Origin: a bacterium
Lineage (GTDB): Bacteria; Hydrothermota; UBA3073; JACQXS01
Reading direction: 5' to 3'
Assembly (NCBI GenBank): GCA_030605695.1
Contig: JAUWHX010000055.1
Location: forward strand, 1-55,352
DNA: 55,352 bases
Shown here: piece after piece, positions 8,065-52,941 of the stretch
Layout: each line of letters starts with the position of its first letter
How positions within the stretch are numbered: the stretch's first letter is position 1
Program-made: the position numbers and the translations under genes
The notes under the pieces: model-generated
Told to the model about the DNA's origin: nothing
The model's input: the letters and a program-made list of their open reading frames with translations, nothing else
Database searches by the model: none

Positions 8065-8092
8065 GTAGGGGCGTTCAATTGAACGTCCCTAC
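8065..8092. repeat. Intergenic REP-like palindrome between convergent genes (may also act as a terminator)
   Basis: gtaggggcgttcaa-ttgaacgtccctac, 28 bp with one mismatch, GTAG/CTAC ends. Confidence 0.8.
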
Positions 8093-22071: not shown

Positions 22072-22602
22072 ATGAGGCAAGAAGTAATAATATCGGGATT
22101 CGGAGGTCAGGGAGTCATAAAGGCAGGAGTCCTGCTGGCAACTGCTGCGATGACGGAAGATAAGCGTTGCACTCACTTCCCATCATACGGTGCTGAAATG
22201 AGAGGCGGAACCGCTAATTGCTCGGTGATTGTCTCAACCGATGAGATAGCTTCCCCAATAATCAATGAGCCAGACACAGTGATTGCAATGAACGAGCCAT
22301 CTCTTGATAAATTCGAGCCGAGACTCAAGAAAGGCGGAGTATTGATATACAACTCCTCGCTGATTTCAAAGAAGCCATCCAGAAACGATATTGACATTGT
22401 GGCTGTGCCTGCCAATGAAATAGCAGAGCAACTCGGAACCACTAAATGTGCTAATATGGTTGTGCTCGGAGCATACATATCAAAGACGCACGCAGTATCG
22501 CTTGAGAGCATAAAATCCTCTATACCCAAAGTATTCAAGGGAAAGGATAAATTCCTCGCTACGAATAAAAGTGCTCTTGACAAAGGTGCCCAATTTAAAT
22601 AA
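22072..22602 (+). CDS. 2-oxoacid:ferredoxin oxidoreductase gamma subunit
   Basis: SGFGGQG, PSYGAEMRGG, ANMVVLGA. Confidence 0.93.
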   Translation: MRQEVIISGFGGQGVIKAGVLLATAAMTEDKRCTHFPSYGAEMRGGTANCSVIVSTDEIASPIINEPDTVIAMNEPSLDKFEPRLKKGGVLIYNSSLISKKPSRNDIDIVAVPANEIAEQLGTTKCANMVVLGAYISKTHAVSLESIKSSIPKVFKGKDKFLATNKSALDKGAQFK

Positions 22603-24015: not shown

Positions 24016-25050
24016 ATGCTATTATTATTTCTACTCTTAAATCTGGAAACCCCTTTAAGAACTCCACAAATATTACTAACTATCCCGTCAAACGCTTACC
24101 AATTTACTCCACTTGACCAATATGAGGACTTTTTCCTTTCCTATCCATCCCTGAACATTAAGAACGATTCCATATATTTTAGAGGGTCTTCCAAAGTCTT
24201 ATTACTCTTGGATGGCATCCCCATTAAATCTCTACATAATGTATGCTTTCCTGCAATTGAAAAAATAGAACTACTTGCCGAACACGCAAGTTCCCTTTAC
24301 GGAGATTATGACGCAGTCCTCAATATCATTACTAAAAAATTCAGTCGGGAACAAAGCGAAGATCCTCTCCCCTACTCAAACATCAAGCTAATCAAAAATC
24401 CAGACCATGTTCAATTCGAGCTCGGAAGGATACTCTCTAATCCTTTTGACCTCTACATATCAGGCGACCTGGACTCTACCACAAAATTTAGTGCTAATCT
24501 CGGATACCAATCAAAACTCATTAACATCAGAGCTCACTATGTAGGAAAAGCTTACGAAACACCCATACTCTTACAGGGTTCGTTGTTCTCTAATTTCAAA
24601 TTCTCCTTAACTCAACACTTCTTTTCCATAATCCAGCTCTTCAATCTTAAAAATCATAAATTCTTGCTCGGCACAGATTCTTACCAAATTCTAAACAAGG
24701 ACTCATCTTCCACATCTTTCTTTATTCAAGACTATTGGGAACTGCATCCTCTTCTATATCTCGTCCCATCTGCAAGATATGATAAAACCCTTCATCCAAA
24801 AATCTCTGTGGGCTATATCCCTCAAATCAATACGACTATTTTCTCATCTCTCACACAGGACCAGCTGAATCTTGGAATCAGAACATTTGACTCAAGCATC
24901 AATGCTTATTATATGTTTGATGAAGCTCGGCAAGGAATAGAAGCAAAACTCACTACCCCCTGGCTCTGGAACTTTAAACTCTCAACAGCTTTAGACCTTT
25001 CTATATCATTCAATTCTTCAACTCTTCAACTCTTCAACTCTTATAACTGA
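24016..25050 (+). CDS. TonB-plug-containing outer-membrane protein, truncated by a frameshift
   Basis: FRG...LLLLDGIP...IEKIEL...SSLYG...VLNIITK plug motif; ORF ends just after an 8-mer repeat. Confidence 0.75.
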   Translation: MLLLFLLLNLETPLRTPQILLTIPSNAYQFTPLDQYEDFFLSYPSLNIKNDSIYFRGSSKVLLLLDGIPIKSLHNVCFPAIEKIELLAEHASSLYGDYDAVLNIITKKFSREQSEDPLPYSNIKLIKNPDHVQFELGRILSNPFDLYISGDLDSTTKFSANLGYQSKLINIRAHYVGKAYETPILLQGSLFSNFKFSLTQHFFSIIQLFNLKNHKFLLGTDSYQILNKDSSSTSFFIQDYWELHPLLYLVPSARYDKTLHPKISVGYIPQINTTIFSSLTQDQLNLGIRTFDSSINAYYMFDEARQGIEAKLTTPWLWNFKLSTALDLSISFNSSTLQLFNSYN

Positions 25051-25270
25051 ATACAGAAAAGAGTTTCAACTTGGGAAAAAGAGAAGCTCTCAATCTACCC
25101 AAAAGGGAAATCTTGAGATATATATTTTCGGAGACTTACTCTCGGAAACCTTACGCATTGAGTTACGGATAATAGACGCTCACATATTTTATCGCTTAAA
25201 CTCTTTAACCTTTGAACCCTTGAACTCTGAAACCTCTTCATACGGCTTTAACTGGCACTTCTGGAACTAA
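24995..25270 (+). pseudogene. Out-of-frame C-terminal part of the 24016 outer-membrane protein
   Basis: +1 frame open 24995-25270: ...EYRKEF...IELRIIDAHIFYR...YGFNWHFWN*, a beta-barrel-like terminal strand; no ATG of its own. Confidence 0.75.
25009..25042 (+). repeat. 8-bp simple sequence repeat (TTCAACTC)x4 at the frameshift
   Basis: ttcaattc ttcaactc ttcaactc ttcaactc tt. Confidence 0.9.
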
Positions 25271-25314
25271 CCCCTTAAACCTTTGAACCCTTCAACCCTT
25301 GAACCAGAGAAATC

Positions 25315-27150
25315 TCATTTCAATATTATGAACTTCAAAACCTTGTTTTTATCTCTGTATGATAATCTCGCAAAGTAAACACCAGAGTTCTTGCTCATTG
25401 TATCAAACTTGTTCGTCCCTCCTCCAAGATAACCATTATATACACTCTCTGCTAATCTACCAGCCACATCATAAATCATAAGTGAAACCTTATCTCCAAA
25501 TGGAAGCTTAATTACAAGTTTGTTCCCCTCAAATCCCGATATAACATCAGAAGAAACAGAAACTTCTTCTATGTTAGTTGAATGATACCGATGAGTCAAC
25601 CACACTTCATAAAGCACTGGTATATCATCGTCTCCTCTAAACTCGGCTTTATACTGAAACATCTCTGCTTTACGCTCACCGAGAGAAAAGCTATCTACTA
25701 CATTCTTTCCTATAATAGCAGCGTGAGGCCCATCCCATTGCTTATTTACAATGTCGGAACTATCAGAACCAATTCTCCAATAAAAAGCTAAAGCTGTATC
25801 ATTTGGAACACACGCTTTATAACCAAAATACTCTACTATATTGGATGTATCTGGAAGCTCAAGTATGGAAGATTCAAGAAAACCCAAGTCTGCAAATGCC
25901 TCTAACATCCGGTTTTCATAAACTATATGGGCATTTTTCTCGGTCACCAAAATATCCATACTCGGAACACATTCCCAGCACCTTAAAGATGCCACATACA
26001 CCCAATGAGAGTTATGGCTCATAGCTGCAGTATCTACATCATAAACGCTGAATGTCAAAGGATTAGCAGGGTCCTGACGAAACCAACCAATTTCATCATA
26101 AGTGCCTGCTATATCAGGTAAGCCATCTAAATCTATATCAGCAGCTATCGCCCCATCCATATAGTGTCCAGAAGAAACTTCAGCTAATAAAGTGCTGTCA
26201 AAATTATAACCTGTCCCATCGTTAAGAAGCGCATAAAATCCTTTAACACCACTATCCCATTGTTTTCCACATACTAAATCCATATCGCCATCCATATCTA
26301 TATCTTCTGCCCATGCACCATCAAAATCGCCATCAACCCAGTAATTACTGCTCCAAGATAGTGTGAAATGACCTGTTCTATCATTAAGGAAAACATAATT
26401 GGAATTAAAGCCAATAGAATAAATGTCAGGAAAACCATCTCCATTGAAATCTGCAGGATAGACTCTCCACCCATCGTCAAAAAGGTTTCCTATAAGCTCT
26501 TTGGCAAAATTCTGAGCCCCATCATTACGAAAGAGATAAACATCTCCATGAGATTGACTGCTACTGTTATCGACAGCTATCATATCCACATCCCCATCTA
26601 ATTCCACATCCGCAGATGACACTCTATGATAACCAATTCCGTTATCCACGATGTGCCATATCCATAATGAACCTTGATTTTCATACCAGCCCAAACCTAC
26701 TCCCTTTGTAGCAACTAAAACATCTATATCGCCATCTGTATCAAGGTCACAGGGATAAACAGATAGATAGACAGAAAATCCATCATTAGCAGGCCCTATT
26801 ATATGTTTTGTCGCGAAAGTGTAGTCTCCAAGATTCTCATACCAAACTACCTTATCAGCAGTATGAGCGACCAAATCTTTCTTCCCGTCCTTGTTTATAT
26901 CCGCCGGCATAAAACCCTGATGGTTACTTCCTATGCCCCAATTGCTTTCTACTATATGTTTTTCCCATTTTGAGTAGTCCCATTCAGTGGCTACCAGCGA
27001 AACTTGACCCGGAGTAGCAGCAGTAACACTATCACCTTTATAGTATTGAGTTCTCCAATCGCTTGCTGGTCCTAAAACTCCTGAGCCGCCCATCCAATCT
27101 GTCTGCAGACTCACGGCTCCAATAACTATTAAAAACAATAGGTGTAACAT
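25315..27150 (-). CDS. Secreted FG-GAP/VCBS-repeat protein with CTD
   Basis: Repeated DxDxDGDxD motifs; IYDVAGRL...SGVYFARL tail; RBS GGAGG. Confidence 0.88.
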   Translation of the reverse strand: MLHLLFLIVIGAVSLQTDWMGGSGVLGPASDWRTQYYKGDSVTAATPGQVSLVATEWDYSKWEKHIVESNWGIGSNHQGFMPADINKDGKKDLVAHTADKVVWYENLGDYTFATKHIIGPANDGFSVYLSVYPCDLDTDGDIDVLVATKGVGLGWYENQGSLWIWHIVDNGIGYHRVSSADVELDGDVDMIAVDNSSSQSHGDVYLFRNDGAQNFAKELIGNLFDDGWRVYPADFNGDGFPDIYSIGFNSNYVFLNDRTGHFTLSWSSNYWVDGDFDGAWAEDIDMDGDMDLVCGKQWDSGVKGFYALLNDGTGYNFDSTLLAEVSSGHYMDGAIAADIDLDGLPDIAGTYDEIGWFRQDPANPLTFSVYDVDTAAMSHNSHWVYVASLRCWECVPSMDILVTEKNAHIVYENRMLEAFADLGFLESSILELPDTSNIVEYFGYKACVPNDTALAFYWRIGSDSSDIVNKQWDGPHAAIIGKNVVDSFSLGERKAEMFQYKAEFRGDDDIPVLYEVWLTHRYHSTNIEEVSVSSDVISGFEGNKLVIKLPFGDKVSLMIYDVAGRLAESVYNGYLGGGTNKFDTMSKNSGVYFARLSYRDKNKVLKFIILK

Positions 27151-37770: not shown

Positions 37771-39825
<2,055 letters not shown>

Positions 39826-39847
39826 TTCTCCGCCTTTCTATATCTTT

Positions 39848-40057
39848 CATACAGAGTCCGCTATCTTTTATAGCGCCTCCGCTATCTTTTACAGCGCCTC
39901 CGCTATCTTTTATAGCGCCTCCGCTATCTTTTATAGCGCCTCCGCTATCTTTTATAGCGACACCGCTATCTTTTCTGGCGACACCGCTATCTTTTCTGGC
40001 GACATCGCTATCTTTTCTGGCGACATCGCTATCTTTTCCAGCGACACCGCTATCTTT
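39848..40057 (-). repeat. 21-bp tandem array, 10 units; open as (KDSGxAx)n ORF 39818-40081
   Basis: cgctatcttttatagcgcctc-type units. Confidence 0.93.
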
Positions 40058-40094
40058 TACAGGGATGTCCCTATCTCTCATACCCTACCTTCTT

Positions 40095-41501
40095 TCATCT
40101 TATCTTAATTATCTTTACTGGTTTATAACCTTTTATTTTTACAAAATAGACCCCAGGTGATAAATCCTTACCTATAACTTTAGACTCTGTCTCCTCAACC
40201 AACCTTCCCATCACATCGTGAATCGTGAATTTTCCCTTGATAGCTTGATTGCTCGATAGCTTGATAGCTGTATGTTGCACAAATGGGTTCGGATACACTC
40301 TCATCTCTAATCTCTCATCTCTAATCTCTAATCTTTCTTCCACCCCGAGAGGGTCAAAAGAGGTCGTATAAATATCCCAGTTCCCATTTCGGTCATCCTC
40401 CCAGACTACAATACACTTGGCTTCATCCCCAGAAATATCAGGATACCATGCATTCGTTGGAGATGAGGAAACTGGATAAAACCCTCCTAAGTTTCTCAGA
40501 GTATCTACATTTCGCCTTAAAATCTCGCTCTTCGTCTGAAAATCTGCCCACGCTATAACCCATCTCTCATTATTCCAGAAAATCCGAGGATAATATGAGT
40601 CACGGGCTGTATCATATAAAACAGGAAAATCAGAACCTTCTGGAGTTCCTGTTGAATCGATAGCTCTTCCATAAATATCATAAACAGAACCAGAACGGTA
40701 GTCTGACCACACAACGAGCCAGCGACTATTGCCACAGGAAACCTCCGGATATAACTGATGTTCCGGAGCTTGACAAATTGGGAAGTTACTTCCAGCTAAT
40801 CCACCTGCTGAATCTATTAATTGACCATAAATATCAGAATTGTCCGTTCTATTGTCCTCCCATACTACGAGCCAATTTTTTTGAGTTCCATTCCAGGATA
40901 CGGACGGAGAAACCTGATGCTCATCTGCTTGAGAGATGGGAATTGCTGAGCCCACAAAATTACCACTACCATCCATAAGTTGACCATAAACATCAAGATT
41001 AGCCCCATTCCGATAGTCTGACCAGACAACAAGCCAATACTCCCCACTCCAGCTAATACTTGGATTCACTGAATTTGCAGTATCTGCAATGGAAAACACA
41101 GAATCTATTGAATCTCCTGCCCAATCCAGAAACCGACCATAAATGTGAGAGATAGCACTACCCTGGTCGTGTGTCCATACCACCAGATAGCAGGAATCAC
41201 TCCATTCTACTGCAGGAAAACACTGACTCCTTATGTCAGTACATATTGGGAAATTAATATCTACAAGCGTTCCGTCGGTATCCATAAGTTGGCCCCATAT
41301 ATCTGCAAGTGGGCTACTCCGCTGGTCTTCCCATACAACAAGCCACCCACTATCACTTCTTGCAATCGCAGCGTGCTTCTGGTCATTCAAGGCATCAGAA
41401 ACAGGAGAATCCGCATTTACTAATATAGGGGTGAATAGAAATATTATTCGCAGAATCTCAAAACGAGTCTGCGACCTGTGGATAAGCAATAGTCTTTTCA
41501 C
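40095..41501 (-). CDS. Secreted repeat protein (WLVVWxDxR repeats) with CTD
   Basis: Repeats P.V.W....WLVVW.D.R....DIYGQL; GTG 41501 with GAGG RBS preferred over 41540. Confidence 0.82.
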   Translation of the reverse strand: MKRLLLIHRSQTRFEILRIIFLFTPILVNADSPVSDALNDQKHAAIARSDSGWLVVWEDQRSSPLADIWGQLMDTDGTLVDINFPICTDIRSQCFPAVEWSDSCYLVVWTHDQGSAISHIYGRFLDWAGDSIDSVFSIADTANSVNPSISWSGEYWLVVWSDYRNGANLDVYGQLMDGSGNFVGSAIPISQADEHQVSPSVSWNGTQKNWLVVWEDNRTDNSDIYGQLIDSAGGLAGSNFPICQAPEHQLYPEVSCGNSRWLVVWSDYRSGSVYDIYGRAIDSTGTPEGSDFPVLYDTARDSYYPRIFWNNERWVIAWADFQTKSEILRRNVDTLRNLGGFYPVSSSPTNAWYPDISGDEAKCIVVWEDDRNGNWDIYTTSFDPLGVEERLEIRDERLEMRVYPNPFVQHTAIKLSSNQAIKGKFTIHDVMGRLVEETESKVIGKDLSPGVYFVKIKGYKPVKIIKIR

Positions 41502-41556
41502 TGCACGCCTCTTTTGTAACTCTTTACTCTCAACTCTCAACTCTATACTCTTAATT

Positions 41557-43014
41557 CTATCTCAATATCGTCAGCTTCCTCGTTGCCTTGTAATTATTTG
41601 TCTCTACTCTCACAAAGTAGATGCCATTGGTGAGTTCCTCAAGATTTATCTCAACACCCTGTTGCGTTGTCAAAACATGCTTTGCTAACTTGCCTGAGAG
41701 GTCGTAAATCTTGATGTTTGTCTCCTTGATAGCTTGATGGCTCGATAGCTTGATGACTGTCTTTCCCATACACGGATTCGGATAAACTCTTAATTCCAAA
41801 CTCTTAACTTTTAACTCTTTGTCCTCACTTACACCGGCAGTCGGGCATTTATGACGCTTGTAATATATCTCCTCAATGCCATGACGCCAATCTGTCCAAG
41901 CTATATGTGCATCATAAGGACATTTAGTACAAGCAACTGATATATACTCAGAAGTGCTATTATCAACAGTTAATCCTTCATCAGCTATCCAATTTGCTCC
42001 ATAATCAGCTGACCGATTATAATATACCTCAGAATTGCCATCCCTCTCATCCTGCCAAGCTATATGAACACAACTATCTGAACAACAAATTGATGGATAT
42101 TGAGAATTAGCAACGTTATTAATAAGTCTAAAATTATCAATATCCCAACTTGTTCCATAGTCACTTGACCGATTATAATATATCTCATACTTGCTGCCAA
42201 ACTTCCAACCCTGCCAAGCTATATGAACACAACTATCTGAACAACAAATTGATGGATACCAATCCCAGTCAGCATTATTAGTAAGTCTAAAATTATCAAT
42301 ATCCCAACTTGTTCCATAATCGCTTGACCGATTATAATATATCTCAGAACCCCCATCCCTATCATCCCACCAAGTCATATGAACACAACTATCTGAACAA
42401 CAAATTGATGGACGTTCGGATTTATCAGCATCATTAGTAAGTCTAAAATTATCAATATCCCAACTTGCTCCATAATCACTTGACCGATTATAATATATCT
42501 CAGAATTGCTATCTCTCTCATCCTGCCAAGCTATATGAACATAACTATCTGAACAACAAATTGATGAATATTGAGAATTAGCAGCGATATTAGTAAGTCT
42601 AAAATTATCAATATCCCAACTTGCTCCATAATCACTTGACCGATTATAATATATCTCATAATTGCCATTTCTAATATCATTCCAAGCTATATGAACAAAA
42701 CTATCAAAAACACAAATAGAAGGACAATGAGAATTTTGTGTTGTTAATTGTTGATGAGGACCAAAAGTAGCTCCATAATCTATTGACTGAACATAATAAA
42801 GCTCACCGGGGTTCGTTCCATCTCTATGTTCCCAAACTATATGAACAAAAGAATCTTGTGCTGCTATTGTCCATGCATTATTCCGGGAACCATAGTCAGA
42901 ATAGCTTGGATAAATAGTTAATCTTTTATCTGGATTCTCCCACTGCCCATACAAACTGCAAGATGCCAACACCATTCCACAGGATCCTGCGAACAAAAAT
43001 CCCCATCTTTTCAT
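41557..43014 (-). CDS. Secreted BNR/Asp-box repeat (sialidase-fold-like) protein with CTD
   Basis: Near-identical ~52-aa repeats with SSDYGxSW Asp-box; YPNP...GIYFVRV tail. Confidence 0.85.
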   Translation of the reverse strand: MKRWGFLFAGSCGMVLASCSLYGQWENPDKRLTIYPSYSDYGSRNNAWTIAAQDSFVHIVWEHRDGTNPGELYYVQSIDYGATFGPHQQLTTQNSHCPSICVFDSFVHIAWNDIRNGNYEIYYNRSSDYGASWDIDNFRLTNIAANSQYSSICCSDSYVHIAWQDERDSNSEIYYNRSSDYGASWDIDNFRLTNDADKSERPSICCSDSCVHMTWWDDRDGGSEIYYNRSSDYGTSWDIDNFRLTNNADWDWYPSICCSDSCVHIAWQGWKFGSKYEIYYNRSSDYGTSWDIDNFRLINNVANSQYPSICCSDSCVHIAWQDERDGNSEVYYNRSADYGANWIADEGLTVDNSTSEYISVACTKCPYDAHIAWTDWRHGIEEIYYKRHKCPTAGVSEDKELKVKSLELRVYPNPCMGKTVIKLSSHQAIKETNIKIYDLSGKLAKHVLTTQQGVEINLEELTNGIYFVRVETNNYKATRKLTILR

Positions 43015-43039
43015 CTTCTCTCCATTTTATTTTCTCTCC

Positions 43040-45127
43040 TTATTCTTTTTTGCTTTCTGATTTTGAAACCCGAAGGGTAATTATTCCTCCCTCGCTGTCT
43101 GCAATATATATATATTCCCCAGCTACTTTAATATCCCGAGCATACCCGGGTGTATCATATTTCCCAATTTCTACTGGATGACCTGGCTTACTTACATCAA
43201 CTACTACAACTCCTGCATTCCCGTCTGCTACATATGCATAAGAATCAACCATTGTAATTCCTGTTGCACATCCATTTGTAGAGAAGTGCCCTATTTCAAA
43301 AGGTGCATCTGGATTTGAAACATCTACTATCCTCAACCCACAATCTCCATCTGCAAGATAACAATAATCGTTTGCGAGAGCTAAACTCCATACATATCCA
43401 TGTGTATCGTGCTGTCCAACTTTCTTCGGATTCGTTGGTTGCCTCACATCTATTATCAAAAGCCCTGCTTCTGCTCCCGCCAGATAACAATAACCGCCAA
43501 CGCATTCCACATCCCAGACATAACCAACACTCTCATATCGTCCTATCTCTTTTGGAGAACTCGGTTTGCTAATATCCATTATTGAAAGTCCCCCCGAATA
43601 ATTCGCCACATAAGCATAATCCCCACAAGCACTAATACCTCGTGCATACTGCGGAGTCTTATACTTTGAACATAATTCAGGAGAACTTGGGTTGCTAATA
43701 TCTATTACCCAGAATCCACCAACATCATCTGCCACACAGGCATAAAATTCAACTTTCTCCGTAGAAATGTTTTTTGTAGTTGCGTCGGTTTTCTGGGCAG
43801 GTGCAAGACCTGCCCCTACAGTCTTTGTAGGAACTTGATTTATCAAGCTCTCTGTGGACATTTTACTCAAAGAAACATCCCATACTGCCCCATCTGTATC
43901 ATAACACCCTATTTCTAAAGGAGATTGAGGATTCTCAATATCTATTATACGAAGCCCATCTTCATACTGAGCCGCATAAAGATAATTCCCGTCTAAAGCT
44001 AATGCGTAACTTTGCCCAGCCGCATCATGCCACCCTACTTCCTGAGGACTGTCAGCTTGAGAAATATCAAAAAAACTAAGTCCCGCTCTTAAATTACACA
44101 CACATACTAAAAAGCCATCTACTGCAATTGCTTGAGTATATTCATAAGGACCTGATTCATCAAGCACACATACCTCGCGAGGACTCAAAACATTTGATAT
44201 ATCCAAAACTCTAAGTCTATAATCTAAATCAGCTAAATATGCATACTTTTGACTTTTGACTTTTGACTTTTGACTTTTTATTGCTACATCCATAATCCTT
44301 CCTCTCTTGTAGGAACTCACAATATGAGGACTTTCAGGTTGAGAAACATCAATTATTCTCAACCCCTCGTTCTTCACCGCCACAAGAGCATACGAATATC
44401 CACTATCCGCCGACTCTACACTGTGGACTGTAGACTGTGGACTGCGGACTATAGACATTACAGCTACTTTTATTGCCATACCGGGAATTCTACAACTCCC
44501 AATTTCATAGGCATAATCAGGCTCAGATATATCTATTATCCTCAATCCTCCACTATAATCCGCTATATATGCATATTTTTGATTCTGAATTGTTATTCCG
44601 TGAGCCGCACCTGAAGTTTTTACTCCTATTACCTCTCTTGGATGCGACGGATAGGAAATATCTATAACCCACATCCCATACCCACAATCTACTACATAGG
44701 CATATTTCCCATCTATGGCTACATCCATAAAATAACTTTTCACTTTTAACTTTTCACTTTTAACTTTGAAATATCCTACTTCCCGAGGTTTTTTGGGGTC
44801 AAATACATCTATGATTCTCAAGCCTTGACTACCATCCGCTATATAAGCATAATTCCCAGAGACATATATGCTTTCTGCTTCTCCCGGAGTTGCACATTTC
44901 CCCACAGATTTGGGTTTTGCATAATCTGATATATCAATAACCTCTATTCCCCTGCCGGTTGCACAATAAACAAACTTTCCTTCAATATGCGCATCTTTAA
45001 AAATTCCTGATGCCCCCATAGAACTCACCCATTCCATATTATAGGCAGAGGATTCAGTCGCACTATCACAAAGTTTTACCCCACAAACTAAAACAACAAA
45101 AAACTTAATCAAAAATCTCATCTCCAT
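43040..45127 (-). CDS. LVIVD-repeat beta-propeller protein
   Basis: Repeats YAY(I/V)AD...GLRIID(I/V)S.P..P.E(I/V)G. Confidence 0.9.
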   Translation of the reverse strand: MEMRFLIKFFVVLVCGVKLCDSATESSAYNMEWVSSMGASGIFKDAHIEGKFVYCATGRGIEVIDISDYAKPKSVGKCATPGEAESIYVSGNYAYIADGSQGLRIIDVFDPKKPREVGYFKVKSEKLKVKSYFMDVAIDGKYAYVVDCGYGMWVIDISYPSHPREVIGVKTSGAAHGITIQNQKYAYIADYSGGLRIIDISEPDYAYEIGSCRIPGMAIKVAVMSIVRSPQSTVHSVESADSGYSYALVAVKNEGLRIIDVSQPESPHIVSSYKRGRIMDVAIKSQKSKVKSQKYAYLADLDYRLRVLDISNVLSPREVCVLDESGPYEYTQAIAVDGFLVCVCNLRAGLSFFDISQADSPQEVGWHDAAGQSYALALDGNYLYAAQYEDGLRIIDIENPQSPLEIGCYDTDGAVWDVSLSKMSTESLINQVPTKTVGAGLAPAQKTDATTKNISTEKVEFYACVADDVGGFWVIDISNPSSPELCSKYKTPQYARGISACGDYAYVANYSGGLSIMDISKPSSPKEIGRYESVGYVWDVECVGGYCYLAGAEAGLLIIDVRQPTNPKKVGQHDTHGYVWSLALANDYCYLADGDCGLRIVDVSNPDAPFEIGHFSTNGCATGITMVDSYAYVADGNAGVVVVDVSKPGHPVEIGKYDTPGYARDIKVAGEYIYIADSEGGIITLRVSKSESKKE
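43795..43853. repeat. Back-to-back REP-like hairpins inside the LVIVD gene
   Basis: gggcaggtgcaagacctgcccctac and gtaggaacttgatttatcaagctc. Confidence 0.8.
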
Positions 45128-45179
45128 TATATCTTAATACCTCAAAATCCCATTTTGTCAATGTTTTTTTAAAAAAATA

Positions 45180-45253
45180 AACCACAGAGAACACAGAGAT
45201 ACACAATTTATCAAAAAATCATAATAATTTTTCTCTCTGTGAACCCTGTGGTT
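45180..45253. repeat. 9-mer-periodic inverted-repeat module
   Basis: aaccacagagaacacagaga ... tctctgtgaaccctgtggtt (17/20 complementary). Confidence 0.7.
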
Positions 45254-45281
45254 TCCTCTAATTGTGTGAAAATCTGTGGCT

Positions 45282-46898
45282 TTAGGATTGTGTCTCTCCG
45301 CAGGATTCTTCTACAAGCTCTTTTATCGCTTCTGGAAGTAGCTCCATCACATCGGATGCTAAAACTCCGTATTCCGTGAGTTTTTCTCGTGCAAGCTCTC
45401 CTGCCCTCCCATGTAACCAAACACCAAGCATTCCTGCATCTAAAGGAGTAAGTCTCTGTGCCAGAAGTCCTCCTATTATACCAGTTAATACATCACCACT
45501 TCCACCTTTGGCAAGAGCAGAATTATACATAGGATTTAAATAGCTTCTGTCTTTCCTTGCTATTATAGTAGGCGCTCCCTTAAGAACCAATGTTACTTTA
45601 AATTCTCTTGCAAACCGACCCGCCACTTCAATTCTTGATTTTTGAATATCCGATATAGATAATCCTGTGAGCTTTGCGAGTTCACCCGGATGAGGCGTAA
45701 TTATTGTATCTGCTTTGATTTTCTTCAATATATCAGGAGTCAAGTTATTTAACCCATCAGCATCAATTACAATGGGCAATTTTATCTTTGGGACTAACTT
45801 TTGAACCAGAGCACGCGTTTCAGGATTTGTTGAGAGACCAGGCCCCAACACTATCACAGTAGCTTTGTTGACCTCATCCATTATTTTCTCCATAGCACCG
45901 ATACCAAGTGTTCCATCCTTAGTTTCAGGCAATGGAACAGTTATCACCTCAGTTGCTTTGGCTTCAAGTATTGGATTAAGAGACTCCGGAATCCCAAGTC
46001 TCACGAGTCCTGCCCCAATTCTTAATGCAGAAAGCCCTGTAAGAGCCGCCGCTCCTGTCATTCCACGAGAACCTGCAAGCACAAATACTTTCCCAAATGT
46101 CCCTTTATTTGAATTATCACTCCTTTGAGGAAGTAGATTACAAACCTCATCAGGTTCAAGCAATCCTAATTTAATATATTCCCATAAATAAGGCGGTACT
46201 CCTATATCAATAACATCTACGGTTCCTGCGTAATCTTTGCCTGGATACAAGAATAATCCTCTTTTTGGCAAACACATTGTTCCTGTAAAATCTGCATACA
46301 CACAAGCTCCTTCTACTTCTCCTGTCTCTGCATTTAAGCCAGATGGAATATCTACTGCAAGAACTGGAATGTCACTGTCATTTATAATATTTATTACATC
46401 TGCAGGTATCCCTTTTGCTTTTCCCTTAAATCCTGTCCCAAATATCGCATCAACTAAAAATCCAATCTCATTATGAATGTGTTTTTTCAATGTAGCTATA
46501 TCTTTCTTACTCGTTATTTCTGTAATTTTATATCCTGATTTTAATAGAATATTTAAATTTATTCTTGCATCTCCTTTTATTTCCTGAACTTTCCCAAGCA
46601 GAAAAACCTCTACCTCTGTCCCATTATTCAATAAGTGCCTTGCAAGAACAAATCCATCTCCTCCATTATTCCCTTTGCCGCAAACTATTCCGACCTTTAA
46701 TCCTGTAGGGACAACCCTTGCGGTTGCCCTATCTTGTCGGGCAGGTGCAAGACCTGCCCCTACAAAACCAATTTCTTCCTGAATTATCTCAAATAGACCG
46801 AGTCCTGCATTTTCCATAAGCACGGCTCCTGGAATTCCAAGTCCCTGAATTGCTTTGTGGTCTATTTCTTTCATCTCATCCTGTGTTACAAGTTTCAT
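45282..46898 (-). CDS. nnr: Bifunctional NAD(P)H-hydrate epimerase/dehydratase NnrE-NnrD
   Basis: LMENAG, CGKGNNGGDG, DAIFGTG, DIPSG, NKGTFG, DADGL, TPHPGE, GGSGDVL. Confidence 0.95.
   Translation of the reverse strand: MKLVTQDEMKEIDHKAIQGLGIPGAVLMENAGLGLFEIIQEEIGFVGAGLAPARQDRATARVVPTGLKVGIVCGKGNNGGDGFVLARHLLNNGTEVEVFLLGKVQEIKGDARINLNILLKSGYKITEITSKKDIATLKKHIHNEIGFLVDAIFGTGFKGKAKGIPADVINIINDSDIPVLAVDIPSGLNAETGEVEGACVYADFTGTMCLPKRGLFLYPGKDYAGTVDVIDIGVPPYLWEYIKLGLLEPDEVCNLLPQRSDNSNKGTFGKVFVLAGSRGMTGAAALTGLSALRIGAGLVRLGIPESLNPILEAKATEVITVPLPETKDGTLGIGAMEKIMDEVNKATVIVLGPGLSTNPETRALVQKLVPKIKLPIVIDADGLNNLTPDILKKIKADTIITPHPGELAKLTGLSISDIQKSRIEVAGRFAREFKVTLVLKGAPTIIARKDRSYLNPMYNSALAKGGSGDVLTGIIGGLLAQRLTPLDAGMLGVWLHGRAGELAREKLTEYGVLASDVMELLPEAIKELVEESCGETQS
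46705..46763. repeat. Complete REP doublet in frame inside nnr
   Basis: gtagggacaacccttgcggttgccct-atcttgtc-gggcaggtgcaagacctgcccctac. Confidence 0.9.
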
Positions 46899-46914
46899 CC
46901 TTCCTCCTATAAAT

Positions 46915-47751
46915 TTACTTTACTACTATCATTTCAAGTATTCTATCCAGCCGAAAAGTGCGACGCTTCTCTCTTAAAAGACAATGTGATATTAGGTATG
47001 TATAATCCTGATAAGGAACTATGTCAACTGGCTTAATGGTCCGAATAGTCTCATTGCCTCGAGCCGATATATATCTAATTCTAAGTTTCTTCTTGGCTCT
47101 TAAACATTCTTCTATCTCAGGTGGTAATATTATCTCCCCATAAGTCGGAAAAGTAATTGAACCACCATTTAGCTCCAGAAGGTCATAAAGTGTATTAATT
47201 TTCCTCTTTTGTCTAAAATCGTCCAAAAATATATGGAAAATTTCCTTTGTTATTTTTGTATCTCCAAGTGCCCGATGTACTCCAGAAACATCTATACCGA
47301 AATAGGAAGCAATATTTGTTAGGGTATTTGAAGAAAACTGATAGTATGCGCGAGCCAAGATAAGAGTGTCAATCACAGGATTTTTGGGAAAAGTGATTCT
47401 TAAATTATATAGATGCACGCCAAGAAAATTTAAATCAAAAGGTGCATTATGTGCAACAATCACTGTTCCTTCTATAAATTCCAATACTCTCTCCACAACC
47501 GTTTCAAATGAAGGTGCATTATGAAGCATCTTGTCTGTAATTCCATTAATTTCACTCGCTCCGGGAGAAACAGGCATATGAGGATTTATTAAGCTACTAT
47601 ACGAGTCTATAATTTTATTATTTTTAGTTTTCAGGAGTCCGATTTCACAAATTCGGTCTCCATATTGTGGATGTAATCCCGTAGTTTCTAAATCAAGAAA
47701 ACAAAAAACAACATTTTGTAGGGGTTCAAAATTTTGAACCCCTACATTCAT
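46915..47751 (-). CDS. DnaQ-like DEDDh 3'-5' exonuclease fused to a C-terminal WYL domain
   Basis: DLETTG, AHNAPFD, HRALGD; IRYISARG...YLISHCLLR..RRTFRLDRI. Confidence 0.9.
   Translation of the reverse strand: MNVGVQNFEPLQNVVFCFLDLETTGLHPQYGDRICEIGLLKTKNNKIIDSYSSLINPHMPVSPGASEINGITDKMLHNAPSFETVVERVLEFIEGTVIVAHNAPFDLNFLGVHLYNLRITFPKNPVIDTLILARAYYQFSSNTLTNIASYFGIDVSGVHRALGDTKITKEIFHIFLDDFRQKRKINTLYDLLELNGGSITFPTYGEIILPPEIEECLRAKKKLRIRYISARGNETIRTIKPVDIVPYQDYTYLISHCLLREKRRTFRLDRILEMIVVK
47717..47746. repeat. Perfect 30-bp REP-like palindrome at the 5' end of the exonuclease gene
   Basis: tgtaggggttcaaaattttgaacccctaca. Confidence 0.9.
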
Positions 47752-47777
47752 TTGTGTAATCTGTGGCTCCTTTTTAT

Positions 47778-48887
47778 TTACAATGCTCTCTTATAAATAT
47801 TTTCTATATCTTCTTGCTTCACCTCTTTTGGGGTAACTTCTAAATTCCTTCTTCCCCATACATCTTTAACAAACCTCGGTATGTCATTTTGTGTTATTCC
47901 ATAATCTGACAATCTTGTGGGGATTCCTAAATTATTTATAAATTCATTTATATCGCCAAATATTTTGACAATGGACGATATTTTCTCTTGTAGGGGTTCA
48001 AAATTTTGACCCCCTACATCTCTACTTAAAAATTCAAGTGCCCACGGAATTAGAGCTCCGTTTGCCCTTCCATGAGGCACTCCATAAAATGTAGTAAGAG
48101 GATATCCAAGTGCATGTAAAATTATTGTCCGTGTCCGTGATATTACAAGTCCCCCAAGCATTGATGCATAAAGCATACGAGACCTTGCTTCAAGATTCTC
48201 TCCATCCTGAGCTACTTTTGGCAATTCCTCTTTTGTTATCCTGATTGCCTCAACTGCAACATTGTCCGACTCTGGTGTTGCAAGAATTGAAAGATACCCT
48301 TCTATTGAATGAGTTAATGCATCTACACCTGTATTTACAGTAATATCCTGAGGCATTGACAAAGTGAGTTTTGGGTCCAAAATAGCTACTTTCGGGAAAA
48401 TCCCCTGATTTGAATATCCTTTTTTATGAGAACCCATCGTTATCACTGCATGTTGCGTTACTTCAGATCCTGTCCCAGCAGTAGTTGGAATCTCAATAAT
48501 AGGAAGCGGGGAATAAGCATCTTTATCCCCACCGAGATAATCCTCTATCAAGCCATCATTTTTTGCAAGTAAAGCAATACATTTTGCCGCATCCATTGGA
48601 CTGCCACCACCAAGTCCAATTACAAGTCCAATCTTCTCTTTCCGCACTATATGAGTTCCCTTATTAACTGTCTCAAGTCCAGGATTTTCCTCTACCTCAT
48701 CAAATATAAATAAAGTTTTCTCTTTAAGCGAAGTTTTAAGCAAATCAAGTGCCCCACTTTTTTTAGATGAACTCCTTCCAGTAACCACAAGAATCCTCTC
48801 CACAGGTGGCAAAAAACTCGCTATCTCCTGAAGTTTTCCTTCTCCAAACACTATTCTCGTGGGTGAAAAATATTCAAATTTTTTCAT
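47778..48887 (-). CDS. Iron-containing alcohol dehydrogenase
   Basis: GGGSPMDAAK, PTTAGTGSE, DALTHSIE, HALG, PHG. Confidence 0.93.
   Translation of the reverse strand: MKKFEYFSPTRIVFGEGKLQEIASFLPPVERILVVTGRSSSKKSGALDLLKTSLKEKTLFIFDEVEENPGLETVNKGTHIVRKEKIGLVIGLGGGSPMDAAKCIALLAKNDGLIEDYLGGDKDAYSPLPIIEIPTTAGTGSEVTQHAVITMGSHKKGYSNQGIFPKVAILDPKLTLSMPQDITVNTGVDALTHSIEGYLSILATPESDNVAVEAIRITKEELPKVAQDGENLEARSRMLYASMLGGLVISRTRTIILHALGYPLTTFYGVPHGRANGALIPWALEFLSRDVGGQNFEPLQEKISSIVKIFGDINEFINNLGIPTRLSDYGITQNDIPRFVKDVWGRRNLEVTPKEVKQEDIENIYKRAL
47989..48018. repeat. REP-like palindrome in frame inside Fe-ADH
   Basis: tgtaggggttcaaaattttgaccccctaca (29/30 identical to 47717-47746). Confidence 0.9.
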
Positions 48888-49804
48888 TATATATGGAACT
48901 CTATAACATCTCCATCTTCAAGTTTATGTTCTCTTCCTGCGCGTTGTCCTTTAAATTTGTGGCTCCAAATCCTCGCATAATTGAGTCCACCAGCAAAATC
49001 TTTATGAATCTCACGAGCCGCATTTATGACTGTGCTACCACCGGGCAAAACAACAGGTTCCTCAAAATCAGGTTGCTTTCCGGGCTCCTTCGTATAAACC
49101 CGAATAATGTCCAAAGAGCTATAGATTTGATTCTTCAGTTCCTCAAGTCCTCTTGGCTCCTCAGCAGAAACTCCAATTACAGAGTTTCCCTCTAATTTTT
49201 CTTTTAAATACTTGAAGTTCTTTTCTCCATTTGGCAAATCAAGTTTATTTCCTACCACCATTACTTTTCTGGCTCTTGTTCTTAATTCCTCCAGCTTTTC
49301 TATACTCGGATTTATATCATTATTTAAATCTATTACAAGCAATAAAAGGTTAGCTGAATATATAAGATTACCCATCCACCTTTTTGTAAACTCATGCGTC
49401 AAAGCAGGAAGGTCTACAAGTTGTATCTGGACATTCTCAAATTGCATCATCCCAATCACAGGACTCCCAGTGGTAAATGGATATGTCGCAACTTCTGGAC
49501 TCGCGTTGGTAAGGATTGAAAGGAGTTTAGATTTGCCTACATTAGGCATTCCAAGAAGCAAAACCTGAGCCACTCCCTCTTTCTTTATAGAATAACTGTA
49601 TATCCGAGCACCTCGTTTTTTCTGCATCTCTTTATTTAGTCTGGCTATTTTTGCACGTAACTCCGCTCGCAACCTATCAGTTCCTTTATGATGCGGCATT
49701 ATTCCAAGCATTTCTTGAATGGCACTAATCTTTTCTTCTGGAGTTCCAGCTAACCTGAGCCTTTTCTCAGCCCCAAAATACTGTGGTGGTAAATTAGCCG
49801 GCAT
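48887..49804 (-). CDS. DRG/OBG-family GTPase with TGS domain
   Basis: MPANLPP, HKGTD, GMPNVGKS, YPFTT, DLP, NKLD, LEDGDVIE. Confidence 0.9.
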   Translation of the reverse strand: MPANLPPQYFGAEKRLRLAGTPEEKISAIQEMLGIMPHHKGTDRLRAELRAKIARLNKEMQKKRGARIYSYSIKKEGVAQVLLLGMPNVGKSKLLSILTNASPEVATYPFTTGSPVIGMMQFENVQIQLVDLPALTHEFTKRWMGNLIYSANLLLLVIDLNNDINPSIEKLEELRTRARKVMVVGNKLDLPNGEKNFKYLKEKLEGNSVIGVSAEEPRGLEELKNQIYSSLDIIRVYTKEPGKQPDFEEPVVLPGGSTVINAAREIHKDFAGGLNYARIWSHKFKGQRAGREHKLEDGDVIEFHI

Positions 49805-51238: not shown

Positions 51239-52303
51239 TCAAAATCTCCATCTGGCTCCCAACATATATCTAAAAGTAGAAGTCACATCACTTACAGTTG
51301 AAAATTCTTCTAAGTCTTTCCTTCGGTTATCAAAAATACTTGCAAAATCTATTTCAATATGTTTATATCTATACCCAAAACCAAGTGTAGGAATGGTTCG
51401 TTTTGCATAATGATAACGCAATTCTCCATTTGAAGTTAAATATGAAGGAACAGTTGTTTTTATTAGTCCAGCCCGAAGCGAAAGCCAGGGAACCGGAGTA
51501 ATTTCTCCACCTAAATTTAAGGTGCGTTTAAACTGATAATCAACGGGAATACATTTAACTTTTTCTTCTAACAAATGGGAAATTTGAATACCAACTAAAG
51601 TTTTGCTACTCGGAGAAAAACTTACTCCCAAACTCAGATTATTAGGAAGTTCTTGAGCTATATTCCCGCTCTCCCCATCACTATAAACCCAGCATTCAAT
51701 TTCTGAACTCAAAGCATTATAAAAAGTAGAGAATACTTTAATCTGTGAAATAGGGTTAAATAAAACTCCTATATCAAAAGAAGCTGTCTGATCGTGGGCG
51801 AATATCTTTGTTACTTTCTCCCAATCAGAGTCACTTCTGAGATATTTAACATTTGCTCCAATTGAGACTAACGGCAAAATTCGTTTCCCTACGCCTAATA
51901 ATAAGCAAGTCTCATAACCCAAATCTTTCCATTTTTCTCCTGTTTTTCCTCCCGGGCCTCTTTCGATGTTTTCATTTTTCCTATCCCCTCTCTGCCAATG
52001 ATTAAAGCTTATGCCCAAATTTGGTTGTGCATAAGAAATCAGAAAACCAATATGTGAAAGAAATAAATCCCACCCAGGATCATTTGGCATATCTTCTGGT
52101 GTAATATGCCATGAGTAGTTTTGATAAGATGTGCTTGAAGTTATCGTTTTTTGCTTAATTTCTGTCAACATCGCAGGATTTTGAGATAAAATGCCCCCCA
52201 TCCCCATTGACCTTACACTTTGAAAAACAAAAGGTTCTTCTGCGAATACTATAGAAAATTTAGCTAATAATAAACAGACCAAAAATAGAACCAAACTTCT
52301 CAT
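51239..52303 (-). CDS. Outer-membrane beta-barrel protein (PorV/FadL-like)
   Basis: Signal peptide; RSMGMGG...NPA; SIGANVK; FDIGVL; LSLRAG; terminal ARWRF. Confidence 0.7.
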   Translation of the reverse strand: MRSLVLFLVCLLLAKFSIVFAEEPFVFQSVRSMGMGGILSQNPAMLTEIKQKTITSSTSYQNYSWHITPEDMPNDPGWDLFLSHIGFLISYAQPNLGISFNHWQRGDRKNENIERGPGGKTGEKWKDLGYETCLLLGVGKRILPLVSIGANVKYLRSDSDWEKVTKIFAHDQTASFDIGVLFNPISQIKVFSTFYNALSSEIECWVYSDGESGNIAQELPNNLSLGVSFSPSSKTLVGIQISHLLEEKVKCIPVDYQFKRTLNLGGEITPVPWLSLRAGLIKTTVPSYLTSNGELRYHYAKRTIPTLGFGYRYKHIEIDFASIFDNRRKDLEEFSTVSDVTSTFRYMLGARWRF

Positions 52304-52941
52304 CGGACTCCTATATGTTTATGCAACTGCACTTGTAAGCGGACAGGCAAATTATCTTTTAATATCCATTCGGCGATTAACTTTGGTAGGGACTCCGTCA
52401 AAGGCGAAGTCCCTGTAACCGGTGAGAATAAAACTTCTACACGCTCAAGCAATCCATATTTCTTAATTACATCTTTTACCCAATCGTAGTCTCTTTTATC
52501 AGATAAAACAAATTTAATCTCGTCAGCAGGTCTTAAACTCTCAAGATTATCCCAACACATTTTATCCGACATACCTGAGCCGGGGCACTTTATATCTATT
52601 ATCCTGATTATCCGAGAGTCCAATCTATCAGCAGGAATAGAACCATTTGTATCAACTAATACCTTATATCCTTTATCTAACAGTTTTTTGCTTAGCTCAT
52701 AAATCTCTTCTTGCAGTAAGGGCTCACCTCCTGTAATCTCAACCAGTAGGGGCAATTCATAAATTGCTCCTACATCATTGATAATCTCATCTATAGACAT
52801 TTCATTTCCGTTTTCGTATGCATACTTCGTGTCGCACCATCTGCAACGCAAATTACAATCCGATAGTCTCACAAAAACACAAGGATACCCCTGCCAGCTT
52901 GACTCCCCTTGAATTGACTTAAATATCTCATTCACTTTCAT
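52300..52941 (-). CDS. queE: 7-carboxy-7-deazaguanine synthase (radical SAM)
   Basis: EIFKSIQGE, CNLRCRWCDT, TGGEPL, RLQVQLHK; lies between queD and queC. Confidence 0.95.
   Translation of the reverse strand: MKVNEIFKSIQGESSWQGYPCVFVRLSDCNLRCRWCDTKYAYENGNEMSIDEIINDVGAIYELPLLVEITGGEPLLQEEIYELSKKLLDKGYKVLVDTNGSIPADRLDSRIIRIIDIKCPGSGMSDKMCWDNLESLRPADEIKFVLSDKRDYDWVKDVIKKYGLLERVEVLFSPVTGTSPLTESLPKLIAEWILKDNLPVRLQVQLHKHIGVR
52746..52773. repeat. REP-like palindrome in frame inside queE
   Basis: gtaggggcaattcataaattgctcctac, encodes VGAIYELPL. Confidence 0.85.

What the first reader, a model, noticed from the sequence alone, without database searches (positions are those of the whole stretch)
46705..46764. 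Full REP doublet translated inside NnrE
Seen: a 59-bp GTAG...CTAC doublet encodes VGAGLAPARQDRATARVVPT just before the conserved VGIVCGKGNNGGDG. 26 nt (gggcaggtgcaagacctgcccctaca) are identical to 43795-43820 in an unrelated gene. This is the clearest sign of recent in-frame mobility in the window.
Basis: seen in the sequence. Interest (0 to 1): 0.8.

Follow-up and report, generated by a model that had tools for sequence, protein, structure and literature searches.

The report
In-frame REP doublet inside Nnr gene
A 59-base pair of small palindromic repeats (a REP doublet, a kind of miniature mobile DNA) sits in frame in a surface loop of a conserved NAD(P)H-repair gene; this kind of insertion is already known, though it is unusually common in this genome.

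Summary
Window 46705-46763 is a GTAG...CTAC doublet of two GC-rich hairpins. It is read in frame on the minus strand as VGAGLAPARQDRATARVVPT, inside the epimerase (YjeF_N) half of a bifunctional Nnr gene (45282-46898). One half is 26/26 identical to 43795-43820, inside an LVIVD-repeat gene.

None of 19 orthologues carries it. Sixteen of 18 full-length ones have a 23-residue segment where the window has 41. A contig from another study, about 97.6% identical, bridges the site without the doublet. AlphaFold gives a confident fold with only residues 45-64 disordered.

The doublet belongs to a GTAG-tagged REP family. The genome has 91 GTAGGG-hairpin loci and one RAYT transposase gene. A same-class relative has 88 matches to the half-repeat; its prevalent doublet form, mostly extragenic, has the same architecture.

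Sixty-six of the 91 loci lie in long open frames, and 53 of 57 host frames have Pfam domains (tRNA synthetases, UvrC, Dxr, CarB and others).

Intragenic GTAG REP dimers encoding 20-30 residues were described in 2013, so this is a new member of a known kind. Translation and RAYT-driven mobility are inferred, not shown.

The parts
46705..46763 (-). REP doublet (REPIN-like dimer), GTAG...CTAC, 59 nt. It is read in frame as VGAGLAPARQDRATARVVPT (Nnr residues 46-65).
   Evidence: Absent from 19 orthologues and from the X3 allele.
46739..46763 (-). REP half A, GTAGGGGCAGGTCTTGCACCTGCCC: GTAG tag, 8-bp stem, 5-nt loop.
   Evidence: The same subtype occurs in 15 of 41 related genomes.
46730..46738 (-). 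9-nt spacer between the two REP halves. In G011's prevalent doublet form the spacer is AATA.
46705..46729 (+). REP half B in inverted orientation, GTAGGGACAACCCTTGCGGTTGCCC. Its stem triplet is swapped relative to half A (ACC..GGT against GGT..ACC).
   Evidence: The same hairpin B occurs in the doublets at G000:C20:1070-1127 and in G011.
45282..46898 (-). Host gene: bifunctional NAD(P)H-hydrate repair enzyme Nnr (YjeF_N epimerase plus Carb_kinase dehydratase), 538 aa, frame intact.
43795..43819 (-). Second exact copy of REP half A, in frame in an LVIVD-repeat gene (43040..45127) as VGAGLAPAQ. It is followed by a short stretch ending in CTAC that may be a truncated second half.
   Evidence: G001 lacks it: 64 nt in the window against 25 unrelated nt in G001.
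47718..47745 (.). 28-nt perfect-palindrome REP singlet (GTAGGGGTTCAAAATTTTGAACCCCTAC) at the 5' end of the exonuclease-WYL frame, read as VGVQNFEPLQ. It may lie upstream of the true start.
   Evidence: Shared with G001, absent in G002.
47990..48017 (.). Same REP singlet with 1 mismatch, in frame in the Fe-alcohol dehydrogenase gene as VGGQNFEPLQ.
   Evidence: Shared with G001. G002 has a different REP at the same site, read as KGEHTNSPLQ.
52746..52771 (-). REP singlet in frame in a radical-SAM gene that I read as QueE (VGAIYELPLL).
   Evidence: G002 and G003 carry 61- and 67-nt doublets between the same flanks, and all frames are intact.
52386..52414 (-). GTAGGG-hairpin element in frame near the C-terminus of the same gene (TGTSPLTESLP).
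8065..8092 (.). Another 28-nt REP singlet of the family. It is not in a long frame.

Best explanation
The 59-nt stretch is a dimer of two inverted GTAG-tagged REP hairpins, i.e. a REPIN-type miniature mobile element. It entered the Nnr gene after this lineage split from its nearest sequenced relative. It landed in the loop between helix 24-43 and the first beta-strand (68-73) of the epimerase domain. It survived because, together with small changes in the flanks, it adds a whole number of codons (+18), has no stop codon in that frame, and encodes a flexible Gly/Ala/Pro/Arg-rich loop that leaves the fold intact. Shown here: the anatomy, membership of the repeat family, the orthologue indel, an allele without it, the intact frame, the predicted disordered loop, and the presence of a RAYT gene. 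Inferred: mobilisation as single-stranded DNA by a RAYT (Y1/HUH) transposase, that the peptide is actually made, and that it is neutral.
For: Anatomy: GTAG and CTAC tags and two 8-bp GC-rich stems with 5-nt loops.

Family: GTAGGG is followed by a hairpin at 119 of 540 sites, against 2-9 of 258-910 sites for the 10 control hexamers that share no tag sequence with it. These sites merge into 91 loci. Doublets of the same architecture occur at G000:C20:1070-1127 and G000:C43:25263. The half-REP pattern occurs in 15 of 41 related genomes and never in the reversed-pattern control. G011 has 88 matches, and its prevalent doublet is GTAGGGGCAGGGCTTGCCCCTGCCC-AATA-GGGTAACCGCAAGGGTTACCCCTAC. Stem position 8 varies as T-A, G-C and C-G among copies, so pairing is kept.

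Insertion: 0 of 19 orthologues carry it, and the segment is 41 residues against 23 in 16 of 18. TM0922 (2ax3) aligns to query 8-45 and 71-238, which leaves 25 residues against 7 in the solved protein. The X3 contig gives an allele reading EEIENIDELKVG without the REP. G001, about 90% identical in DNA, lacks both copies of the 25-mer at these sites.

Tolerance: AlphaFold mean pLDDT is 89.1 and pTM 0.87. Residues 45-64 are the only internal stretch of more than four residues below pLDDT 50. All invariant motifs are present.

Transposase: a 158-aa ORF at G000:C61 scores 131.5 bits on NF047646, REP-associated tyrosine transposase, whose cut-off is 80.

Precedent: intragenic GTAG REP dimers encoding 20-30 residues (PMC3733652, passages read).
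Against: No RNA or protein evidence exists that the segment is expressed, because no RNA holder was listed. The one RAYT found is flanked directly by a different, GTGG-tagged repeat: 3 of that family's 11 genome copies lie within about 100 nt of the gene. The only GTAGGGG-type REP nearby lies roughly 200 nt upstream, so the cognate transposase of this family is not identified. The genome is 84% complete. The event is not a clean cut-and-paste: against the X3 allele, 67 nt replace 13 nt. The exact doublet is single-copy in this genome, and only its half recurs. X1, the only run whose contig spans both junctions, may be the source sample.
Confidence: 0.85

Rival explanations
1. The insert has been co-opted. 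Either the 20-residue loop gives Nnr a new property, or the strong in-ORF RNA hairpin tunes translation or mRNA stability of the exonuclease-Nnr transcript.
For: The RNA fold is very stable at -43.5 kcal/mol, z = -7.2. REPs sit in frame in dozens of conserved genes of this genome. Some sites keep a REP across genera in different forms.
Against: The insert is absent from the nearest relative and from a roughly 97.6%-identical allele, so Nnr does not need it. The same loop holds unrelated inserts in G001 and G003. The segment is predicted to be disordered. The same peptide occurs in an unrelated LVIVD protein.
Confidence: 0.08
2. Assembly or binning artefact: the doublet was spliced into the gene by mis-assembly at a repeat.
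For: The genome is a metagenome bin of 93 contigs. REP words are multi-copy in the metagenomes, where depth rises at 46734-46764 in X2 and X3. G001 has a contig break inside this gene.
Against: A separately assembled 2765-nt contig of X1 spans the site with 0 differences, though possibly from the same reads. The insert keeps the frame open with conserved sequence on both sides. Analogous in-frame REPs are shared between the independently assembled G000 and G001.
Confidence: 0.03
3. The Nnr gene, or its epimerase half, is on its way to becoming a pseudogene, and the insert is the first lesion.
For: The insert lies only about 10 residues before the GKGNNGGDG motif.
Against: The 538-aa frame has no stop. 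All 97 invariant columns of the 19-sequence alignment are by definition kept, and the protein is 90% identical to G001 over residues 26-538. The model is confident outside the loop. This loop varies in length among relatives that are presumably functional.
Confidence: 0.04
4. The loop grew by local duplication or slippage, not by a mobile element.
For: The same loop in G003 holds a (CCGAAAA)n tandem repeat. In G001 it holds a 36-nt insert with a duplicated GAAGAA that is single-copy in that genome.
Against: The window's insert carries the GTAG/CTAC tags and both hairpins of a dispersed family. It is 26/26 identical to a copy 2.9 kb away, and matches doublets in other contigs and genomes.
Confidence: 0.02

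Closest known systems
Intragenic GTAG-tagged REPs (Di Nocera, De Gregorio and Rocco 2013, BMC Genomics 14:522, PMC3733652; passages and supplement file 3 read)
   Same: GTAG terminal tag and a 5-13 bp GC-rich stem. Head-to-head dimers, with inserts inside known genes that encode 20-30 residues. Hosts include tRNA synthetases and Uvr proteins. Different REPs at about the same site in orthologues of two species (recB in Xanthomonas). REPs near tyrosine transposase genes.
   Different: In that survey most REPs are intergenic. Here 66 of 91 loci lie in long open frames in a roughly 2-Mb genome. The hairpin sequences differ, and Nnr/YjeF is not in their list: 0 hits for 'yjef' or 'carbohydrate kinase' in the supplements.
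REPIN-RAYT systems (Bertels and Rainey 2011, PMC3116915; Nunvar et al. 2010, PMC2817692; search listing and abstract starts only)
   Same: Two REPs in inverted orientation with a short spacer that can fold into one long hairpin. A RAYT gene is present in the genome. A relative (G011) has a high-copy burst.
   Different: REPINs are described as extragenic and as flanking their RAYT. Here the doublet is inside a gene, is single-copy as a doublet, and the RAYT found is flanked by another repeat type.
Rickettsia palindromic elements (RPE; Ogata et al. 2000, recalled and not read here; mentioned in PMC3733652)
   Same: Palindromic mobile repeats inserted in frame in conserved protein genes, kept because they fall in permissive surface positions.
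   Different: RPE-4 and RPE-6 are CGTC-tagged according to PMC3733652, and RPE-1 is longer. The organism, tag and sequence are all unrelated.
TM0922 / Nnr of Thermotoga maritima (PDB 2ax3)
   Same: The host protein is the same bifunctional enzyme. The N-terminal 240 residues align at E = 7e-33.
   Different: The solved protein has 7 residues where the window has 25.

Membership tests
GTAG-tagged REP | Terminal GTAG tetranucleotide next to the stem | tested here: met
   Both halves start with GTAG when each is read 5' to 3' on its own strand.
GTAG-tagged REP | Short GC-rich imperfect palindrome (stem about 5-13 bp, small loop) | tested here: met
   8-bp stems and 5-nt loops. DNA fold -19.8 kcal/mol, z = -4.9.
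GTAG-tagged REP | Dispersed multi-copy family in the genome | tested here: met
   91 GTAGGG-hairpin loci, and 119 of 540 tag sites followed by a hairpin against about 1% for control tags. This subtype has only 5 copies in G000 but 88 in G011.
GTAG-tagged REP | Pairing kept through compensatory changes among copies | tested here: met
   T-A, G-C and C-G at the same stem position among listed copies. Halves A and B differ by a swapped triplet. No formal covariation statistic was run.
REPIN | Two REPs in inverted orientation with a short spacer, able to form one long hairpin | tested here: met
   9-nt spacer. The RNA minimum-free-energy fold is a single hairpin at -43.5 kcal/mol. As DNA the fold is two separate hairpins.
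REPIN | The doublet itself is the replicating unit (many doublet copies) | tested here: inconclusive
   The exact doublet is unique in G000. Two other doublets of the same architecture occur in G000. About 15 of the 27 sampled G011 copies show the second hairpin in the printed context.
REPIN | Cognate RAYT flanked by the same REP | tested here: not met
   The RAYT at G000:C61 is flanked by GTGGGAGGGACTTCC-AGTCCC repeats. One unrelated GTAGGGG REP lies roughly 200 nt upstream. The genome is 84% complete, so another RAYT may be missing.
RAYT (REP-associated tyrosine transposase), for the G000:C61 gene | Score above the curated cut-off of NF047646, and an HUH motif | tested here: met
   131.5 bits against a cut-off of 80, plus Pfam Y1_Tnp. 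The sequence shows PDHVHLV. Reading this as the HUH motif is from my own knowledge.
Rickettsia palindromic elements | Sequence family of RPE-1 to RPE-8 | not tested
   No RPE sequence was compared. PMC3733652 places RPE-4 and RPE-6 among the CGTC-tagged repeats, a different tag.
Bifunctional Nnr (host gene) | YjeF_N and Carb_kinase domains in one chain | tested here: met
   PF03853 E = 3e-46 and PF01256 E = 5e-58. Match to PDB 2ax3.

The most novel reading that the evidence does not exclude
In this lineage, coding loops rather than intergenic DNA are the main long-term home of REPs, and occupied sites act as cassettes. Once a GTAG...CTAC element sits in a permissive loop, later RAYT activity or REP-to-REP conversion swaps its content in place, from singlet to doublet or from one hairpin to another, without breaking the frame. 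This would give a steady supply of loop variation in essential proteins. Two sites point this way. The QueE site holds 28, 61 and 67 nt between the same flanks in different genera. The ADH site holds two different REPs.
Probability: 0.15. Interest if true: 0.6.

Novelty: new member of a known kind. Interest (0 to 1): 0.4.

Why it matters
This is a clean case, checked against orthologues and a variant allele in another run, of miniature mobile DNA being absorbed into an essential-type enzyme as extra protein loop. At genome scale it shows a small genome from an uncultured bacterium in which roughly half to three quarters of REPs are read as protein. That matters in four ways. For annotation, REP-encoded peptides inflate 'novel' loops and can break homology-based alignments. 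For assembly, contigs break at these repeats. For ideas on how REP/RAYT systems persist in gene-dense genomes. And as a natural map of insertion-tolerant loops in conserved enzymes. It does not reveal a new kind of element.

Tried and rejected
- **RNA evidence:** no RNA holder was listed for the stretch, so expression could not be examined.
- **Rfam:** 0 matches at E <= 0.1 in 43000-49000.
- **Earlier notes of this scan:** none fitted.
- **G001's alternative insert as a repeat family:** the 30-mer occurs once in G001 and not in G000, G002 or G003 at up to 3 mismatches. It is therefore not a detectable repeat. G001 is only 61% complete.
- **The C61 RAYT as the cognate enzyme of the GTAGGGG family:** not supported, because its flanks carry another repeat.
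- **The ~1.3-kb units flanked by GTAGGG hairpins as IS200/IS605 copies:** rejected. They are paralogous secreted beta-propeller proteins with a Por_Secre_tail domain. REPs sit in the signal-peptide region and in the C-terminal domain.
- **Runs X2 and X4:** no listed contig bridges the doublet. X4's contig stops at 46773 with a loose end resembling the G001-type insert.
- **Not done:** no protein database search (search for homologous proteins, representatives, atlas) and no complex prediction. The orthologues from 40 related genomes answered the question.
- **First submission:** one search was returned for a missing confidence field and was resent with the field added.

Full report
**1. The observation**

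The + strand at 46705-46763 reads GTAGGGACAACCCTTGCGGTTGCCC, then TATCTTGTC, then GGGCAGGTGCAAGACCTGCCCCTAC. Each outer part is a GTAG tag followed by an 8-bp GC-rich stem and a 5-nt loop. The two parts face each other.

The stretch lies in the minus-strand ORF 45282..46898 (538 aa). There it is read as VGAGLAPARQDRATARVVPT, just before GLKVGIVCGKGNNGGDG. Pfam finds YjeF_N (residues 25-214) and Carb_kinase (271-522), so the host is a bifunctional NAD(P)H-hydrate repair enzyme and the insert is in its epimerase half.

The 25-mer of one half occurs exactly twice in the window, at 43795 and 46739. No match appeared in 100 shuffles. With the next base the identity is 26 nt. The second copy is in frame in a 695-aa LVIVD-repeat gene as VGAGLAPAQ.

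The stretch folds much better than shuffled controls. As DNA it gives two hairpins at -19.8 kcal/mol (z = -4.9). As RNA it gives one long hairpin at -43.5 kcal/mol (z = -7.2).

**2. It is an insertion**

A search of 40 related genomes with the Nnr protein gave matches in 36 of them (37 of 41 counting G000). I read the 19 best loci. None has the doublet.

The segment between MENAG and GKGNNGG has these lengths:

| Source | Residues |
|---|---|
| 16 of 18 full-length orthologues | 23 |
| G002 | 27 |
| G003 | 28 |
| G001 (contig-truncated copy) | 35 |
| Window | 41 |

The solved Thermotoga enzyme (2ax3) aligns to query residues 8-45 and 71-238. That leaves 25 query residues opposite 7 in the solved protein.

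G001 is in the same genus: about 90% DNA identity over this stretch, and 90% protein identity over residues 26-538. It carries a different 12-residue insert at the same place, with a duplicated GAAGAA. This insert is single-copy in G001. G003 has a (CCGAAAA)n tract there. The loop therefore tolerates insertions and is a recurrent target.

**3. Junctions and alleles**

Contigs of four coded runs were laid on 46300-47200.

- **X1** may be the source sample. One 2765-nt contig covers the whole stretch with no differences.
- **X3** is from another study. A 253-nt contig matches 46496-46701 with 5 other letters, then joins to 46769 with 13 other letters in between. Read on the coding strand, my own translation gives ...IIQEEIENIDELKVG, a 23-residue segment with no REP. 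Against this allele the window has 67 nt in place of 13 nt, a gain of 18 codons. The event was therefore not a clean 60-nt insertion, or the flanks have changed since.
- **X4** has a contig that ends beside the site with a loose end resembling the G001-type insert.

G001 also lacks the REP in the LVIVD gene, with 64 nt in the window against 25 unrelated nt. Both copies of the 25-mer are thus younger than the split from G001.

The identity of the two copies is not by itself a clock. The same 25-mer occurs exactly in G002 (once) and in G040, a different family (twice).

**4. What family it belongs to**

GTAGGG is followed by a hairpin at 119 of 540 sites in the genome. For the 10 control hexamers that share no tag sequence with it, the figure is 2-9 of 258-910 sites. 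Four overlapping or one-base variants of the tag were also run. TAGGGG, GGTAGG and ATAGGG rose with it (88, 35 and 17 sites), while CTAGGG gave 1 of 20.

The sites merge into 91 loci. Most are 27-30-nt palindromes of the form GTAGGGG-stem-loop-stem-CCCCTAC with many different stems. Twenty-seven loci carry both tags, and two of those are doublets. A third doublet, at C43:25263, is seen.

The half-REP pattern occurs in 15 of 41 related genomes and never in the reversed-pattern control. G011, in the same class, has 88 matches. In its sampled copies the prevalent form is a doublet of the same architecture with a 4-nt spacer. Only 5 of 27 sampled G011 copies lie in long open frames. There the family behaves as an ordinary, mainly extragenic REPIN.

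Among the listed copies, one stem position appears as T-A, G-C or C-G, so pairing is maintained.

**5. The transposase**

The genome has one ORF (G000:C61, 158 aa) that scores 131.5 bits on NCBIfam's REP-associated tyrosine transposase model, whose cut-off is 80. It also matches Pfam Y1_Tnp.

Its immediate flanks carry a different, GTGG-tagged repeat. That repeat has 11 copies in the genome, 3 of them next to the gene. One GTAGGGG-type REP lies roughly 200 nt upstream. The genome is 84% complete. The enzyme that moves the GTAGGGG family is therefore not identified.

RAYT-family matches above the cut-off occur in 24 of 41 related genomes.

**6. Why it is tolerated**

AlphaFold, run with the 19-sequence alignment, gives mean pLDDT 89.1 and pTM 0.87. 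Residues 45-64 are the only long internal low-confidence stretch. They form a coil between helix 24-43 and strand 68-73. All 97 invariant alignment columns include the window's protein.

I could not measure the distance of the loop from the active site with these tools.

**7. The wider picture in this genome**

Sixty-six of the 91 loci lie in stop-to-stop frames of at least 120 codons with at least 15 codons on each side. About 91% of the genome lies in such frames. REPs are therefore still relatively enriched outside genes, but most are inside.

Three cautions apply:
- Seventeen of the 66 lie 15-34 codons from the upstream stop and may precede the true start codon. That leaves 49 clearly internal.
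- At least 14 of the 66 sit in one paralogous family of secreted proteins, so they are not independent events.
- About 5 of the 119 sites are expected by chance.

The 66 loci fall in 57 host frames. Of these, 53 have Pfam domains: 50 of 54 at E <= 1e-5, plus 3 of 3. Going by their Pfam domains, the hosts include:
- the arginyl-, cysteinyl- and seryl-tRNA synthetases;
- UvrC, Dxr, Dxs and the carbamoyl-phosphate synthase large chain;
- biotin carboxylase, EPSP synthase and FGAM synthase;
- DapF, type III pantothenate kinase, YbeY and PdxA.

**8. Site history in the neighbourhood**

The REPs in the exonuclease and alcohol dehydrogenase genes are shared with G001. At the ADH site G002 has a different REP.

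In the radical-SAM gene that I read as QueE, the same flanks enclose 28 nt in the window, a decayed copy in G001, a 61-nt doublet in G002 and a 67-nt doublet in G003. All frames are intact. This suggests either repeated use of the same sites or replacement in place. I did not test which.

Four REP loci lie within 4.2 kb (43795-48017), against about one per 22 kb genome-wide. This comparison is post hoc.

In G002 and G006, and by coordinates in G008, a weaker RAYT-like gene lies directly upstream of the exonuclease-Nnr pair. It is absent from the window's genome. A lost transposase neighbour could explain the local density. That is inference.

**9. What is known**

Di Nocera et al. 2013 (PMC3733652; passages read, supplements searched) define GTAG-tagged REPs. 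They report the following:
- most REPs are intergenic;
- REPs also occur inside known genes in several species, most often in Opitutus terrae;
- more than half of such inserts are dimers or groups encoding 20-30 residues;
- different REPs lie at about the same site in recB of two Xanthomonas species;
- such inserts may be neutral because they fall in loops.

Their supplement lists peptides such as VGAGLPA, but no YjeF/Nnr host.

The REPIN and RAYT papers (PMC3116915, PMC2817692, PMC3479197, PMC8266576) were seen only as search listings with abstract starts. The Rickettsia RPE work is recalled and was not read.

A search for REPIN, RAYT, intragenic and coding sequence from 2014 on listed nothing in the 10 shown that treats intragenic REPINs. 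I make no claim of absence from the literature beyond that search.

**10. Verdict**

The element is a real, lineage-specific, in-frame REP doublet. The kind is known. What is unusual here is the share and number of in-frame REPs in conserved genes of a small genome, and the turnover of REP forms at fixed sites. Translation, neutrality and the mobilising enzyme remain inferred.

Noticed in passing
L032 3995-4384 (G002), L006 202-663 (G006); by coordinates G008:C37:21292-21747: A RAYT-like Y1 transposase gene, scoring below the RAYT cut-off, lies directly upstream of the exonuclease-Nnr gene pair in relatives from two families but is missing in the window's genome. These proteins themselves carry REP-like peptides just after the HUH motif (CRGGVTPPLH; VGADPRVC...GEHTGSPLR).
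   Followed up: partly
G000:C61:17067-17682 (L021) and 8 other sites in G000: A second small repeat family, GTGG-tagged (GTGGGAGGGACTTCC-AGTCCC), with 11 copies. Three of them flank the only RAYT gene found.
   Followed up: partly
window 52300-52941 and its orthologues in L028, L029, L030: The radical-SAM gene that I read as QueE carries REPs at two sites. Orthologues hold a singlet, a decayed singlet or doublets of 61 and 67 nt between the same flanks. G002 has a third REP-like insert (VGANGRSPIL).
   Followed up: partly
G000 contigs C3, C5, C6, C27, C30, C34, C82 (e.g. L022 647-2185): A paralogous family of roughly 350-540-aa secreted beta-propeller proteins with a Por_Secre_tail domain. One REP (VGTQFIVS) forms the hydrophobic part of the apparent signal peptide. 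Another (VGAYHDTP, or GHDKSCPY in a paralogue) sits in a loop of the C-terminal sorting domain. The window's member (41557-43014) has no REP there.
   Followed up: partly
window 21700-22098, 39799-40103, 1641-1844, 5924-6045, 25010-25321, 37895-38019, 41511-41554: Tracts with 21-nt periodicity inside genes, and 7-8-nt tandem repeats (GAGTTGA-like, CTTGAAC-like) between genes. Similar heptamer tracts flank REPs in G011 and fill the Nnr and QueE loops of G003.
   Followed up: no
L002 (G001:C70) 52-87: G001's Nnr has a different 36-nt in-frame insert (SCPQDSSDGQEE) at the same loop, with a duplicated GAAGAA. It is single-copy in G001. A contig of run X4 shows a similar form.
   Followed up: yes
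G000 genome-wide, e.g. window 47717-47746: Many singlets are perfect palindromes through their centre, because the loops AATT, CGCG, CATG and TATA are themselves palindromic. Most are 28 nt, and often 30 nt with a T...A flank. There are at least ten different stems under the same GTAGGGG tag.
   Followed up: no
window 46915-47751: The gene upstream of Nnr is an RNase_T-type exonuclease fused to a WYL domain. The pair is syntenic in G002 and G006.
   Followed up: no
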